A stretch of 47,288 nt of DNA from Escherichia phage HK629. The DNA lies in the sequence record NC_019711.1. One strand, 5' to 3'. The notes beneath the pieces were generated by a model. It saw nothing but the letters and a program-made list of their open reading frames with translations. It was not told the DNA's origin and did not search any database. The position numbers and the translations under genes are program-made. This document shows positions 24,321 to 26,785 of this stretch, piece by piece; the stretch's first letter is position 1, and every line of letters begins with the position of its first letter.

Positions 24321-25211
24321 CTAGATCCCTCTGAAAAAATCTTCCGAGTTTGCTAGGCACTGATACATAACTCTTTTCCAATAATTGGGGAAGTCATTCA
24401 AATCTATAATAGGTTTCAGATTTGCTTCAATAAATTCTGACTGTAGCTGCTGAAACGTTGCGGTTGAACTATATTTCCTTATAACTTTTACGAAAGAGTT
24501 TCTTTGAGTAATCACTTCACTCAAGTGCTTCCCTGCCTCCAAACGATACCTGTTAGCAATATTTAATAGCTTGAAATGATGAAGAGCTCTGTGTTTGTCT
24601 TCCTGCCTCCAGTTCGCCGGGCATTCAACATAAAAACTGATAGCACCCGGAGTTCCGGAAACGAAATTTGCATATACCCATTGCTCACGAAAAAAAATGT
24701 CCTTGTCGATATAGGGATGAATCGCTTGGTGTACCTCATCTACTGCGAAAACTTGACCTTTCTCTCCCATATTGCAGTCGCGGCACGATGGAACTAAATT
24801 AATAGGCATCACCGAAAATTCAGGATAATGTGCAATAGGAAGAAAATGATCTATATTTTTTGTCTGTCCTATATCACCACAAAATGGACATTTTTCACCT
24901 GATGAAACAAGCATGTCATCGTAATATGTTCTAGCGGGTTTGTTTTTATCTCGGAGATTATTTTCATAAAGCTTTTCTAATTTAACCTTTGTCAGGTTAC
25001 CAACTACTAAGGTTGTAGGCTCAAGAGGGTGTGTCCTGTCGTAGGTAAATAACTGACCTGTCGAGCTTAATATTCTATATTGTTGTTCTTTCTGCAAAAA
25101 AGTGGGGAAGTGAGTAATGAAATTATTTCTAACATTTATCTGCATCATACCTTCCGAGCATTTATTAAGCATTTCGCTATAAGTTCTCGCTGGAAGAGGT
25201 AGTTTTTTCAT
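24321..25211 (-). CDS. ea31: Ea31, predicted HNH-type nuclease
   Basis: 296-aa ORF; Cys/His cluster CPFCGDIGQTKNIDHFLPIAHYPEF...VPSCRDCN resembles an HNH/zinc-finger nuclease motif; start overlaps ea59 stop by 4 bp. Confidence 0.85.
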   Translation of the reverse strand: MKKLPLPARTYSEMLNKCSEGMMQINVRNNFITHFPTFLQKEQQYRILSSTGQLFTYDRTHPLEPTTLVVGNLTKVKLEKLYENNLRDKNKPARTYYDDMLVSSGEKCPFCGDIGQTKNIDHFLPIAHYPEFSVMPINLVPSCRDCNMGEKGQVFAVDEVHQAIHPYIDKDIFFREQWVYANFVSGTPGAISFYVECPANWRQEDKHRALHHFKLLNIANRYRLEAGKHLSEVITQRNSFVKVIRKYSSTATFQQLQSEFIEANLKPIIDLNDFPNYWKRVMYQCLANSEDFFRGI

Positions 25212-26785
25212 TGTACTTTACCTTCATCTCTGTTCATTATCATCGCTTTTAAAACGGTTCGACCTTCTAATCCTATCTGACCATTATAATTTTTTAGAAT
25301 GGTTTCATAAGAAAGCTCTGAATCAACGGACTGCGATAATAAGTGGTGGTATCCAGAATTTGTCACTTCAAGTAAAAACACCTCACGAGTTAAAACACCT
25401 AAGTTCTCACCGAATGTCTCAATATCCGGACGGATAATATTTATTGCTTCTCTTGACCGTAGGACTTTCCACACGCAGGATTTTGGAACCTCTTGCAGTA
25501 CTACTGGGGAATGAGTTGCAATTATTGCTACACCATTGCGTGCATCGAGTAAGTCGCTTAATGTTCGTAAAAAAGCAGAGAGCAAAGGTGGATGCAGATG
25601 AACCTCTGGTTCATCGAATAAAACTAATGACTTTTCGCCAACGACATCTACTAATCTTGTGATAGTAAATAAAACAATTGCATGTCCAGAGCTCATTCGA
25701 AGCAGATATTTCTGGATATTGTCATAAAACAATTTAGTGAATTTATCATCGTCCACTTGAATCTGTGGTTCATTACGTCTTAACTCTTCATATTTAGAAA
25801 TGAGGCTGATGAGTTCCATATTTGAAAAGTTTTCATCACTACTTAGTTTTTTGATAGCTTCAAGCCAGAGTTGTCTTTTTCTATCTACTCTCATACAACC
25901 AATAAATGCTGAAATGAATTCTAAGCGGAGATCGCCTAGTGATTTTAAACTATTGCTGGCAGCATTCTTGAGTCCAATATAAAAGTATTGTGTACCTTTT
26001 GCTGGGTCAGGTTGTTCTTTAGGAGGAGTAAAAGGATCAAATGCACTAAACGAAACTGAAACAAGCGATCGAAAATATCCCTTTGGGATTCTTGACTCGA
26101 TAAGTCTATTATTTTCAGAGAAAAAATATTCATTGTTTTCTGGGTTGGTGATTGCACCAATCATTCCATTCAAAATTGTTGTTTTACCACACCCATTCCG
26201 CCCGATAAAAGCATGAATGTTCGTGCTGGGCATAGAATTAACCGTCACCTCAAAAGGTATAGTTAAATCACTGAATCCGGGAGCACTTTTTCTATTAAAT
26301 GAAAAGTGGAAATCTGACAATTCTGGCAAACCATTTAACACACGTGCGAACTGTCCATGAATTTCTGAAAGAGTTACCCCTCTAAGTAATGAGGTGTTAA
26401 GGACGCTTTCATTTTCAATGTCGGCTAATCGATTTGGCCATACTACTAAATCCTGAATAGCTTTAAGAAGGTTATGTTTAAAACCATCGCTTAATTTGCT
26501 GAGATTAACATAGTAGTCAATGCTTTCACCTAAGGAAAAAAACATTTCAGGGAGTTGACTGAATTTTTTATCTATTAATGAATAAGTGCTTACTTCTTCT
26601 TTTTGACCTACAAAACCAATTTTAACATTTCCGATATCGCATTTTTCACCATGCTCATCAAAGACAGTAAGATAAAACATTGTAACAAAGGAATAGTCAT
26701 TCCAACCATCTGCTCGTAGGAATGCCTTATTTTTTTCTACTGCAGGAATATACCCGCCTCTTTCAATAACACTAAACTCCAACAT
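25208..26785 (-). CDS. ea59: Ea59, predicted ABC/AAA-type ATPase
   Basis: 525-aa ORF with Walker A GRNGCGKTT and Walker B-like LVLFDEPEVHLHP; AT-rich; coupled to ea31. Confidence 0.85.
   Translation of the reverse strand: MLEFSVIERGGYIPAVEKNKAFLRADGWNDYSFVTMFYLTVFDEHGEKCDIGNVKIGFVGQKEEVSTYSLIDKKFSQLPEMFFSLGESIDYYVNLSKLSDGFKHNLLKAIQDLVVWPNRLADIENESVLNTSLLRGVTLSEIHGQFARVLNGLPELSDFHFSFNRKSAPGFSDLTIPFEVTVNSMPSTNIHAFIGRNGCGKTTILNGMIGAITNPENNEYFFSENNRLIESRIPKGYFRSLVSVSFSAFDPFTPPKEQPDPAKGTQYFYIGLKNAASNSLKSLGDLRLEFISAFIGCMRVDRKRQLWLEAIKKLSSDENFSNMELISLISKYEELRRNEPQIQVDDDKFTKLFYDNIQKYLLRMSSGHAIVLFTITRLVDVVGEKSLVLFDEPEVHLHPPLLSAFLRTLSDLLDARNGVAIIATHSPVVLQEVPKSCVWKVLRSREAINIIRPDIETFGENLGVLTREVFLLEVTNSGYHHLLSQSVDSELSYETILKNYNGQIGLEGRTVLKAMIMNRDEGKVQ

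What the first reader, a model, noticed from the sequence alone, without database searches (positions are those of the whole stretch)
24321..26785. ea59-ea31: translationally coupled ATPase plus HNH-nuclease pair in the AT-rich b region, candidate Septu-like defence module
Ea59 (525 aa) has a Walker A P-loop GRNGCGKTT and a Walker B-like LVLFDEPEVHLHP followed by ATHSP, as in ABC/AAA_15-type ATPases of defence systems. Ea31 (296 aa) has a Cys/His cluster (CPFCGD...NIDHF...CRDCN) consistent with an HNH nuclease. The two genes overlap by 4 bp and are far more AT-rich than the surrounding phage, which suggests a horizontally acquired cassette. An ATPase plus HNH pair is the architecture of Septu (PtuA/PtuB) anti-phage systems, yet this region is dispensable for lambda growth and has no assigned function that I know of.
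Basis: partly seen in the sequence, partly recalled or inferred. Interest (0 to 1): 0.65.

Follow-up and report, generated by a model that had tools for sequence, protein, structure and literature searches.

The report
Septu-like ATPase–nuclease pair in lambda
The lambda genes ea59 and ea31 form a mobile two-gene ATPase-plus-HNH-nuclease cassette distantly related to the Septu (PtuA/PtuB) anti-phage system, so their old unexplained "ATP-dependent endonuclease" is probably a defence or competition weapon, though this has never been tested in lambda.

Summary
ea59 (25208-26785, minus strand, 525 aa) and ea31 (24321-25211, minus strand, 296 aa) overlap by ATGA, carry the quoted motifs, and have 37% GC against 57% in the left arm.

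The Septu-like reading is supported.
- Ea59 matches a PADLOC PtuA model end to end (E 9e-185).
- The 43 best PDB fold matches to the Ea59 model are all PtuA.
- The Ea31 family aligns with canonical PtuB over 150 columns (hhalign 97.4%, E 1e-11), well beyond the HNH core. It still fails the curated PtuB/TIGR02646 models.
- Both proteins carry extra N-terminal domains. PADLOC files the pair as the untested candidate PDC-M01.

The pair is adjacent and in the same order in all 66 non-lambda loci examined. A 2.77-kb copy 93.5% identical in DNA lies in a Klebsiella defence island, and other copies sit inside type I R-M operons.

Later papers cite a 1982 study for an ATP-dependent, ssDNA-dependent lambda endonuclease, and two later sources name Ea31 and ea59 as that ATP-dependent nuclease. 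A 1994 paper links an ea59-like Streptomyces gene to phage resistance.

Verdict: a new member of a known kind, of moderate interest. No anti-phage phenotype has been shown. In lambda the pair appears to be expressed from pL in the lytic cycle.

The parts
24150..26920 (-). Mobile two-gene cassette: about 135-nt 5' leader, ea59, ea31, and about 170-nt 3' tail
   Evidence: blastn gives 93.2-93.5% identity to Klebsiella (L093-L096) and Kosakonia (L012) loci over window 24138/24153-26918 only. The flanks are unrelated in all three contexts. GC is 0.371.
25208..26785 (-). ea59: PtuA-like ABC ATPase, 525 aa, with an extra N-terminal domain of about 165-190 aa
   Evidence: ORF. PADLOC PDC-M01A 8e-202 and PtuA1 PDLC00282 8.8e-185 over the full length. 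Pfam AAA_21 and AAA_15. AF2 model pLDDT 82. The top 43 Foldseek PDB hits are all PtuA. hhalign against PtuA: 99.1%, E 1e-18.
26177..26203 (-). Ea59 Walker A (GRNGCGKTT, residues 195-203)
   Evidence: Sequence. G195, R196, N197, G198, G200, K201, T202 and T203 are invariant in 34 homologues.
25682..25696 (-). Ea59 ABC signature-like motif (MSSGH, residues 364-368)
   Evidence: S365, S366, G367 and H368 are invariant. The motif aligns with the PtuA signature region in hhalign.
25589..25627 (-). Ea59 Walker B and D-loop (LVLFDEPEVHLHP, residues 387-399); E392 is the predicted catalytic glutamate
   Evidence: D391, E392, P393, E394, H396, L397, H398 and P399 are invariant. The region aligns with IDEIELHLHP of the retron PtuA.
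25505..25519 (-). Ea59 H-loop (ATHSP, residues 423-427)
   Evidence: T424, H425, S426 and P427 are invariant. The loop aligns with TTHSP of PtuA.
24321..25211 (-). ea31: HNH nuclease, 296 aa, made of an N-terminal extension of about 90 aa plus a PtuB-like core
   Evidence: ORF. PADLOC PDC-M01B 5.8e-113. PHROG 10378 'HNH endonuclease' 4.9e-152. AF2 model pLDDT 81.8.
24414..24935 (-). PtuB-homologous core of Ea31 (about residues 93-266): HNH fold plus the following helical region
24771..24890 (-). HNH catalytic and zinc motif (C108-x2-C111 ... D121-H122 ... N138 ... C143-x2-C146-N147)
   Evidence: All these residues are invariant in 34 homologues. With the family profile, the best PDB sequence matches are PtuB 22bv_F (E 0.031) and the Ec78 HNH (E 0.037).
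25208..25211 (-). ATGA overlap of the ea59 stop and the ea31 start (translational coupling)
   Evidence: The same or a very short junction occurs in all 66 non-lambda loci.
26807..26834 (-). Weak sigma-70 candidate (TTGCCG-16-TATTTT, 8 of 12 matches) inside the conserved cassette leader. Unverified.
   Evidence: Own scan. It falls below the threshold of the standard scan. The leader is conserved in the Klebsiella and Kosakonia copies.
27348..27397 (-). tI / sib hairpin followed by a T-run, between attP and ea59 (context: it gates transcription entering from int/pL)
   Evidence: Inverted repeat I1, 18-nt arms. Sequence followed by TTTTTTG. Identification as tI/sib rests on established lambda knowledge.
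27536..27550 (+). attP core GCTTTTTTATACTAA (context: the cassette lies about 620 bp from the integration site)
   Evidence: Single exact match, with 0 expected by chance.

Best explanation
ea59-ea31 is a self-contained, horizontally mobile two-gene module of the Septu (PtuA/PtuB) kind.

Proposed components. Ea59 is an ABC-type ATPase that probably oligomerises and acts as sensor and scaffold. Ea31 is an HNH (beta-beta-alpha-metal) nuclease that probably docks on Ea59 and is the effector. They are made in a fixed ratio by translational coupling.

Proposed mechanism, by analogy with PtuAB and in line with how later papers cite the 1982 enzymology. The complex is a nucleotide-controlled endonuclease. 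ATP binding or hydrolysis by Ea59, together with a nucleic-acid cue (ssDNA according to the 1982 work), licenses Ea31 to cut nucleic acid. The target would be DNA as in 1982, or possibly a tRNA as for other PtuAB systems. Cutting would stop replication of a competing phage or mobile element.

In lambda the module is cargo placed next to attP. It lies downstream of int and of the tI terminator on the leftward strand and has no good promoter of its own. I therefore infer that it is made mainly as an N-dependent delayed-early product of pL, after infection or after excision, and not constitutively in the lysogen.

Shown here: homology, architecture, conserved catalytic residues, synteny, mobility, and defence-island context of relatives. 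Taken from the literature: nuclease activity and dispensability. Inferred: complex formation, the trigger, the target, and any anti-phage effect of the lambda copy.
For: Ea59 resembles PtuA.
- PADLOC PtuA1 model PDLC00282: 8.8e-185 over residues 4-522. PDC-M01A: 8e-202.
- Foldseek against the PDB: ranks 1-43 are all PtuA chains (retron I-A/Ec78/Eco7/Ec83 and E. coli Septu 8eea, 8ee4), E 6e-9 to 9e-6. OLD appears at rank 50.
- hhalign against 7 canonical PtuA sequences: 99.1%, E 1e-18.

Ea31 resembles PtuB.
- hhalign against 8 canonical PtuB sequences: 97.4%, E 1.3e-11, 150 columns, extending about 100 residues past the HNH core.
- The best PDB profile hits are PtuB.
- A Clostridium member of the Ea31 family hits NCBIfam PtuB at 4.9e-5, which bridges the two families.

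Catalytic residues of both enzymes are invariant across the homologues aligned.

The pair is an obligate unit.
- In all 66 non-lambda loci an Ea31 homologue follows the Ea59 homologue directly.
- The same pairing occurs on Streptomyces and Clostridium plasmids.
- There is no conserved third gene, and ea47 is not linked to the pair outside lambda.

Relatives sit in defence or mobile-element contexts.
- Klebsiella: a CP4-like island with anti-restriction, ScoMcrA-HNH and another AAA_15/21 pair.
- E. coli: beside an ABC-3C-type system, with an integrase and AlpA nearby.
- Vibrio: an integrase/DUF3987 island beside a DUF87 (HerA-like) pair.
- Three loci are embedded between type I HsdS and HsdR. 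Cap4, Mrr, ResIII and UvrD neighbours also occur.
- Streptomyces: beside an AAA ATPase plus UvrD-helicase pair, the gene pairing of Gabija.

Literature.
- A lambda endonuclease cited as ssDNA-dependent; Ea31 and ea59 named as an ATP-dependent nuclease/endonuclease.
- The title of Zhou et al. 1994 links an ea59-like gene to phage resistance. One homologue is still named 'phage Hau3 resistance protein'.
- PtuAB systems need both the Walker and the HNH motifs for immunity.
Against: - No anti-phage phenotype has ever been reported for the lambda genes in the papers searched.
- The genes are dispensable and are routinely deleted.
- Ea31 fails the curated PtuB models: TIGR02646 at E 0.055, against 1e-11 to 1e-42 for true PtuB.
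- Foldseek found no match for the Ea31 model. Its HNH region was modelled poorly, with pLDDT 50-74.
- TM-scores of Ea59 to PtuA are low, at 0.25-0.31.
- PDC-M01 is itself only a candidate, defined by guilt-by-embedding and not tested.
- The position behind tI, without a convincing promoter, argues against classical protection of the lysogen.
- Canonical Septu DNA nicking is reduced by ATP, whereas the lambda enzyme is cited as ATP-dependent. The regulation may therefore differ.
- Many neighbours of distant homologues are housekeeping genes.
Confidence: 0.7

Rival explanations
1. A DNA-metabolism accessory enzyme that serves lambda's own cycle. It could, for example, process recombination or replication intermediates or host DNA alongside Red and Gam, with no role in conflict between phages.
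For: The genes lie on the same leftward strand as int and the recombination genes, with no good promoter of their own, which fits co-transcription from pL. The enzyme is cited as ssDNA-dependent and ATP-dependent. ABC ATPases of this clade are related to Rad50/SMC-type repair proteins.
Against: - The genes are dispensable for plaque formation and lysogeny.
- Among phage records the cassette occurs only in lambda, its laboratory derivatives and near-identical isolates, plus two distant matches on faecal contigs at 47% and 24% identity.
- Most copies are in bacterial chromosomes and plasmids, inside defence islands or type I R-M operons and not in phages.
- The closest solved relatives are all immune effectors.
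Confidence: 0.12
2. A selfish element: a toxin-antitoxin-like addiction module, or an HNH-driven homing cassette that persists by its own mobility without benefit to its carrier.
For: The 2.77-kb unit has sharp boundaries, a constant 37% GC in hosts from 37 to 67% GC, and unrelated insertion contexts. Pfam names AAA_21 'putative AbiEii toxin'. HNH enzymes include homing endonucleases.
Against: No terminal repeats or target duplications were seen at the boundaries, and no transposase or intron/intein context was seen. The architecture and size are those of PtuAB and not of homing HNH enzymes. The family is large and keeps full-length partners, with 2,202 cluster representatives at E<=1e-10. Addiction and defence are not mutually exclusive.
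Confidence: 0.08
3. A counter-defence device: lambda uses a captured PtuAB-like complex during lytic growth to destroy or titrate a host immune component, such as retron msDNA, guide nucleic acids or a host tRNase substrate.
For: Expression is inferred to be early and lytic, and not in the lysogen. ssDNA dependence would fit msDNA-like targets. Retrons physically sequester PtuAB through msDNA.
Against: This is purely speculative. Homologues are overwhelmingly chromosomal or plasmid-borne, in defence-type contexts. There is no precedent for an anti-defence protein of this family in the papers seen.
Confidence: 0.05

Closest known systems
Stand-alone Septu (PtuA/PtuB; Doron 2018; structures 8EE4, 8EEA, 8SUX)
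   Same: Both are two-gene operons with the ATPase first and the HNH nuclease second, overlapping or adjacent. Both have an ABC-type ATPase with Walker A, signature, Walker B and H-loop. In both, the HNH partner shares homology that extends beyond the catalytic core. Both occur in defence islands and embedded in other systems.
   Different: - Ea59 has its P-loop at residue 195, behind an extra beta-rich N-terminal domain. The one stand-alone PtuA for which I have residue numbers has its Walker A lysine near residue 43.
- Ea31 is 296 aa, against about 215 aa for PtuB, because of a 90-aa N-terminal extension.
- Sequence identity is only 11-16%.
- Ea31 fails NCBIfam PtuB and TIGR02646, whereas stand-alone PtuB proteins score 1e-11 to 1e-18.
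- Septu DNA nicking is reduced by ATP, while the lambda enzyme is cited as ATP-dependent.
PADLOC candidate system PDC-M01 (Payne et al., guilt-by-embedding)
   Same: This is the family to which the pair belongs. Ea59 matches PDC-M01A at 8e-202 and Ea31 matches PDC-M01B at 5.8e-113, both end to end. All three thirds of Ea31 hit only PDC-M01B models.
   Different: PDC-M01 is an untested bioinformatic candidate defined from bacterial genomes. Its calls partly duplicate Septu calls. The lambda copy is phage-borne and has published enzymology.
Retron type I-A effectors (Ec78/Eco7/Ec83 PtuAB)
   Same: These are the best structural matches of the Ea59 model (ranks 1-21, E down to 6e-9). They have a similar length of about 550 aa, including an N-terminal extension before the P-loop. 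Their HNH partner is PtuB.
   Different: No reverse transcriptase or ncRNA lies next to ea59-ea31. Sequence similarity is limited to the C-terminal 90-145 residues. Retron PtuAB is held in check by msDNA and cuts tRNA-Tyr. Nothing comparable is known for lambda.
OLD-family nucleases, Gabija GajA and PARIS AriA (ABC ATPase with Toprim)
   Same: They share the same ABC ATPase clade (AAA_15/AAA_21). Ea59 hits AriA, mad3 and OLD models at 1e-13 to 1e-17 over the Walker B and H-loop region. Like P2 Old, the lambda pair is carried by a temperate phage.
   Different: The effector here is a separate HNH protein and not a fused or partner Toprim domain. The matches are partial only.
Streptomyces lividans phiHAU3 resistance gene (Zhou, Deng, Hopwood, Kieser 1994)
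   Same: It was reported as similar to lambda ea59 and as conferring phage resistance (title cited). Ea59 homologues of 35-41% identity, with an Ea31-family partner confirmed in the locus examined, are found on Streptomyces plasmids.
   Different: I could not read the paper. I did not check whether the resistance gene is an orthologue with an Ea31 partner.

Membership tests
Septu (PtuA/PtuB) | PtuA: ABC-type (AAA_15/AAA_21) ATPase with intact Walker A, signature, Walker B and H-loop | tested here: met
   Pfam AAA_21 1.3e-16 and AAA_15 8e-13. PADLOC PtuA1 model PDLC00282 8.8e-185 over the full length. All motifs invariant. Top 43 PDB fold matches are PtuA. hhalign 99.1%. Ea59 does not reach the curated NCBIfam PtuA cutoff (49.7 bits against 500), but that model is specific to the retron Ec78 form.
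Septu (PtuA/PtuB) | PtuB: HNH nuclease of the PtuB / TIGR02646 family | tested here: inconclusive
Septu (PtuA/PtuB) | Conserved two-gene operon, ATPase upstream and nuclease immediately downstream | tested here: met
   4-bp overlap in lambda. The same order, with a junction of no more than about 20 nt by tblastn coordinates, occurs in nearly all 66 non-lambda loci and on Streptomyces and Clostridium plasmids.
Septu (PtuA/PtuB) | Association with defence islands or mobile elements | tested here: met
   The association is partial: several loci are flanked by housekeeping genes.
Septu (PtuA/PtuB) | Confers phage resistance that depends on the Walker and HNH motifs | not testable with these tools
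   Shown for a canonical E. coli Septu. For the Ea59 family there is only the title of Zhou et al. 1994. Nothing is reported for lambda.
Septu (PtuA/PtuB) | PtuA oligomer (hexamer or tetramer) binding PtuB dimers | not tested
   No multimer prediction was available. I recall, but could not check, that the 1982 enzyme was described as containing both polypeptides (paper not held).
PADLOC PDC-M01 (candidate) | Both PDC-M01A and PDC-M01B profiles matched by adjacent genes | tested here: met
   8e-202 and 5.8e-113, each over the full length. Fragments of Ea31 hit only PDC-M01B models.
PADLOC PDC-M01 (candidate) | Instances embedded within BREX, DISARM or type I R-M loci | tested here: met
   In three of the distant loci (L021, L028, L043) the cassette directly follows a long ORF of about 970-1020 aa, itself preceded by a shorter ORF of about 380-410 aa. 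The neighbour set contains three HsdR and three HsdS proteins. The assignment of those matches to these three loci is inferred from ORF sizes and positions.
Retron type I-A | Adjacent reverse transcriptase and msr/msd ncRNA | tested here: not met
   No RT ORF lies near the pair. Rfam finds no retron RNA in 22000-29000.
OLD / Gabija / PARIS | Toprim (or DUF4435) nuclease fused to, or partnered with, the ABC ATPase | tested here: not met
   No Toprim match in Ea59 or Ea31. The partner is an HNH nuclease.

The most novel reading that the evidence does not exclude
The Ea59-Ea31 family is a functionally distinct Septu variant whose logic is inverted. Its nuclease would be switched on by ATP plus single-stranded DNA, where canonical Septu nicking is reduced by ATP. 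The extra N-terminal domains of both proteins would act as the sensor. In lambda the module would be deployed offensively as a delayed-early lytic product of pL, to eliminate co-infecting phages, resident prophages, satellites or plasmids. It would not serve as prophage-encoded protection of the lysogen.
Probability: 0.2. Interest if true: 0.65.

Novelty: new member of a known kind. Interest (0 to 1): 0.42.

Why it matters
ea59 and ea31 are among the last sizeable genes of the best-studied phage without a biological role. Later papers cite an enzyme activity from 1982, yet today the locus is used only as a disposable site for inserting cargo.

Placing the pair in the Septu/PtuAB family turns that gap into a simple set of experiments in the easiest genetic system available. 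It also gives the widespread but untested PDC-M01 candidate a member with published biochemistry. The Ea31 family alone has about 2,200 protein clusters (at 50% identity) at E<=1e-10.

If the lambda copy acts during lytic growth, it would be an example of a defence-type nuclease used for competition between phages.

A practical point: common lambda vectors and DE3 lysogens lack or truncate the pair. They may therefore differ from wild-type lambda in interference phenotypes.

Tried and rejected
- Direct sequence search of Ea31 against the PDB gave only marginal HNH hits (E 0.09-0.5).
- I tried to see PtuB models among the PADLOC hits of Ea31 by scanning fragments. The lists are capped at 25 rows and filled by PDC-M01B models. 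PADLOC PtuB matches therefore remain unseen.
- I tried to fetch full-length PtuB proteins with a 52-aa fragment. The problem was solved by tblastn against plasmids.
- The primary papers could not be read: Benchimol 1982, Casjens & Hendrix 2015, Liu 2013 ribosome profiling, and Li 2024 Septu structure. Statements about the 1982 enzyme therefore rest on how three later papers cite it or name the proteins.
- A conserved third gene upstream of the pair was considered and rejected. The upstream ORFs in E. coli, Vibrio and Klebsiella are unrelated.
- ea47 as part of the module was rejected. It is linked to the pair only in lambda copies.
- Retron association was rejected.
- A decoy tRNA as self-protection was rejected. 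The window has no tRNA genes.
- Apparent 100%-identical homologues in Shewanella, Pseudomonas, Bacillaceae, Bradyrhizobium and others were dismissed as lambda control-DNA contamination.
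Full report
**1. Observation**

The ORF list shows ea59 at 25208..26785 (minus strand, 525 aa) and ea31 at 24321..25211 (minus strand, 296 aa). The junction reads ...GTA CAA TGA with the ea31 ATG overlapping it, giving ATGA. A GAAGG ribosome-binding site lies upstream of it, and ea59 has AAGGG nine bases before its ATG.

- Ea59: Walker A GRNGCGKTT (195-203), signature-like MSSGH (364-368), Walker B LVLFDEPEVHLHP (387-399), H-loop ATHSP (423-427).
- Ea31: C108-P-F-C111, D121-H122, N138, C143-R-D-C146-N147.

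GC content is 0.364 for ea59 and 0.378 for ea31. The left arm is 0.570 and the whole window 0.496. The window is lambda or a near-identical relative. The cassette is 100% identical to lambda, lambda imm434/imm21 and HK630 records.

**2. What the proteins are**

*Ea59.*
- It matches Pfam AAA_21 (1.3e-16) and AAA_15 (8e-13).
- In PADLOC-DB it matches the candidate family PDC-M01A at 8e-202 and the Septu ATPase model PtuA1 PDLC00282 at 8.8e-185. Both matches run end to end. Further PtuA, AriA, MADS3 and retron I-A ATPase models give partial hits.
- An AlphaFold2 model (pLDDT 82) searched against the PDB with Foldseek returns PtuA chains as ranks 1-43. These are retron I-A/Ec78/Eco7/Ec83 PtuA and E. 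coli Septu 8EEA and 8EE4, with E from 6e-9 to 9e-6. Generic ABC transporters and Thermus OLD come only after that.
- TM-scores are low (0.25-0.31), as expected for flexible multi-domain proteins at 11-16% identity.
- A profile-profile comparison with seven canonical PtuA proteins taken from annotated plasmid loci gives 99.1% probability and E 1e-18. It covers the signature, Walker B, H-loop and C-terminal region.
- The P-loop of Ea59 sits at residue 195, behind a beta-rich N-terminal domain with no database match. The one stand-alone PtuA for which I have residue numbers has its Walker A lysine near residue 43.

*Ea31.*
- It has no Pfam or NCBIfam hit at default thresholds. It matches PHROG 10378 'HNH endonuclease' (4.9e-152) and PADLOC PDC-M01B (5.8e-113). 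Its N-terminal, HNH and C-terminal thirds each hit only PDC-M01B models among the rows shown.
- Against PDB sequences, the family profile finds PtuB (22bv_F, E 0.031) and the Ec78 HNH protein (E 0.037) as its two best hits, over the 50-residue HNH core only.
- Foldseek with the Ea31 model found nothing, but the HNH region of that model has low confidence.
- The decisive test was hhalign of the Ea31 family against eight canonical PtuB proteins: five stand-alone Septu, two retron, and one with no adjacent ATPase gene listed. It gave probability 97.4%, E 1.3e-11 and 150 aligned columns, with Ea31 residues about 92-265 against PtuB 35-191. Homology therefore extends about 100 residues beyond the catalytic core.
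- A control with NCBIfam shows how far apart the families are. Retron PtuB scores 7.6e-65 on NF041761. Stand-alone Septu PtuB proteins score 5e-18 and 1e-14. A Clostridium Ea31-family member scores 4.9e-5. Lambda Ea31 shows only TIGR02646 at 0.055.
- Ea31 is therefore a PtuB-like core with a 90-residue N-terminal extension. It belongs to a remote sister family and not to PtuB in the strict sense.

**3. The pair is a unit, and it is mobile**

A scan of one genome per species returned 80 loci. Fourteen are 100% identical and are lambda control-DNA contamination in unrelated taxa.

In all 66 others (47-95% identity to Ea59) an Ea31 homologue follows directly downstream. The same holds on Streptomyces and Clostridium plasmids, where hhalign gives 99.8% and 99.1%. 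ea47 is linked only in lambda copies. The genes upstream of the pair in E. coli, Vibrio and Klebsiella are unrelated to each other. No third component is conserved.

The Ea31 family has 4,310 cluster representatives (50% identity) at E<=1e-3 and 2,202 at E<=1e-10, nearly all about 280-290 aa. Full-length Ea59 homologues lie on about 80 plasmids of Streptomyces, Clostridium, Rhodococcus, rhizobia and others.

Klebsiella and Kosakonia carry a copy 93.5% identical in DNA to window 24148/24153-26918 only. Sequence outside these limits is unrelated in all three contexts. This defines a 2.77-kb module with a 135-nt leader and a 170-nt tail. Its GC is 0.37-0.38 in every host, including Pseudomonas mendocina, where the flanks are 0.64-0.67.

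The module is rare in the lambda lineage.
- Among 50,697 phage records it occurs only in lambda, its laboratory derivatives and near-identical isolates, plus two distant faecal contigs at 47% and 24% identity.
- Among 5,426 complete E. coli genomes it is in 91, all at 99% identity or higher. The records listed are mostly K-12-derived lambda lysogens, or DE3 lysogens with a truncated ea59.

**4. Context of relatives**

- Klebsiella: the copy lies in a CP4-like integrative island with AlpA, an anti-restriction protein, RadC, CbeA, a ScoMcrA-type HNH_2 enzyme and another AAA_15/21 pair.
- E. coli: a 65%-identical pair lies beside an ABC-3C-type system (CTD1, MComp1, SMC_N ATPase), with an integrase and AlpA nearby.
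- Vibrio parahaemolyticus: the pair lies in an integrase/DUF3987 island beside a DUF87 (HerA-like) pair.
- Among 122 flanking ORFs of the distant loci, three are HsdR and three are HsdS. In three loci (L021, L028, L043) a long ORF of about 970-1020 aa abuts the cassette, which I read as embedding in type I R-M operons. The set also contains ResIII, integrases, further AAA_15/21 and SMC_N ATPases, Cap4 nuclease, Mrr and UvrD helicases. Many housekeeping genes are present as well.
- Streptomyces: one plasmid copy sits next to an AAA ATPase plus UvrD-helicase pair, the gene pairing of Gabija.

PDC-M01 was defined by exactly this 'embedding' criterion and has not been tested experimentally. Its calls partly duplicate Septu calls.

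**5. What was already known**

- The genes are non-essential (CRISPRi) and are routinely replaced by cargo.
[quoted passage not shown] A later paper cites it for an ssDNA-dependent endonuclease.
- The His-Me-finger classification lists 'ATP-dependent nuclease EA31'. A gene table names ea59 'ATP-dependent endonuclease'.
- Zhou et al. (Mol Microbiol 1994) reported a Streptomyces lividans phage-resistance gene similar to lambda ea59. A homologue still carries the name 'phage Hau3 resistance protein'.
- I could not read these primary papers.
- No paper in the searchable library connects ea59 or ea31 with Septu, PtuA or PADLOC candidates.

**6. How it probably works**

For canonical systems, the papers read here report the following.
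- PtuA oligomers hold PtuB.
- Stand-alone Septu forms a hexameric assembly whose DNA nicking is reduced by ATP.
- Retron-associated PtuAB hydrolyses ATP, is sequestered by msDNA and degrades tRNA-Tyr.

By homology, I propose that Ea59 is the nucleotide-dependent sensor and scaffold and Ea31 the nuclease. Translational coupling would fix their ratio. Taking the later citations of the 1982 enzymology at face value, the lambda enzyme needs ATP and ssDNA. That would differ from the ATP-inhibited stand-alone Septu. The extra N-terminal domains on both proteins are candidates for this difference. The target (DNA or tRNA) and the trigger are unknown.

**7. Lambda-specific expression**

The attP core is at 27536-27550. 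The tI/sib hairpin with its T-run lies at 27348-27397 on the minus strand, between attP and ea59.

The standard scan finds no sigma-70 promoter between tI and ea59. A relaxed scan finds only two candidates with 8 of 12 matches. One of them (TTGCCG-16-TATTTT, 26834-26807) lies inside the leader that is conserved with the Klebsiella copy.

Established lambda biology adds three points. The 'Ea' proteins are early proteins. pL transcripts modified by N read through tI. In the prophage the b region is separated from pL. Together with the scans, this suggests the pair is made mainly during lytic development. Constitutive protection of the lysogen is therefore doubtful unless the weak leader promoter is active. 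This is inference and was not tested.

**8. Verdict**

Two corrections apply. An enzymatic function was already assigned in the literature, and the pair belongs to a divergent sister family (PADLOC PDC-M01) and not to canonical Septu.

It is a new member of a known kind. The classification is implicit in an existing HMM library, and I found no discussion or test of it in the papers searched.

Interest is moderate. A specialist would not be astonished. The result does give the orphan lambda endonuclease a concrete hypothesis that is easy to test, and it gives PDC-M01 a biochemically characterised representative.

Noticed in passing
window 22498-23757 (-): ea47 has the lowest GC in the region (0.31) and no PADLOC, Pfam or NCBIfam match. 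It is not linked to ea59-ea31 outside lambda. It has homologues of 24-28% identity on Acidithiobacillus and Streptomyces plasmids. It looks like a separate orphan cargo gene.
   Followed up: partly
window 22128-22326 (+): Full-length Rfam match to IS009 (RF02111, 224 bits against a gathering score of 117), just before ea47.
   Followed up: no
L002-L011, L013-L015, L022; PLSDB records H102-H104; 'Campylobacter phage CJLB-4' H11: Copies of the lambda b region at 100% identity are filed under Shewanella, Pseudomonas, Oceanobacillus, Bradyrhizobium, Kitasatospora, Stenotrophomonas, Paenibacillus and others. Some are 48.5-kb 'plasmids'. The match in the 'Campylobacter phage' record (48,361 bp) is 100% identical to the lambda cassette. 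These are almost certainly lambda control-DNA contamination of assemblies.
   Followed up: partly
window 26786-26920 (-): The 135-nt leader of the cassette is conserved with the Klebsiella and Kosakonia copies. It contains a small inverted repeat, CCGCCAAATAAATTGCGG, overlapping the weak -35/-10 candidate. This could be an operator or an attenuator.
   Followed up: partly
window 26821-27416: Several short ORFs of 51-89 aa on both strands fill the 750-bp gap between ea59 and attP. None was examined.
   Followed up: no
L093-L096, 1583-4647: In the Klebsiella island, about 3.8 kb upstream of the ea59-ea31 copy, lies a second ATPase pair: a 717-aa AAA_15/AAA_21/SMC_N protein followed by a 302-aa protein. 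It may be another OLD/PARIS/Septu-type system in the same island.
   Followed up: no
E. coli DE3 lysogens (H18, H20, H67-H73) and phage O276 (H16): Widely used DE3 strains and some lambda-derived phages keep only a truncated ea59 (first 293-355 residues) and lack ea31. They cannot make the enzyme.
   Followed up: no
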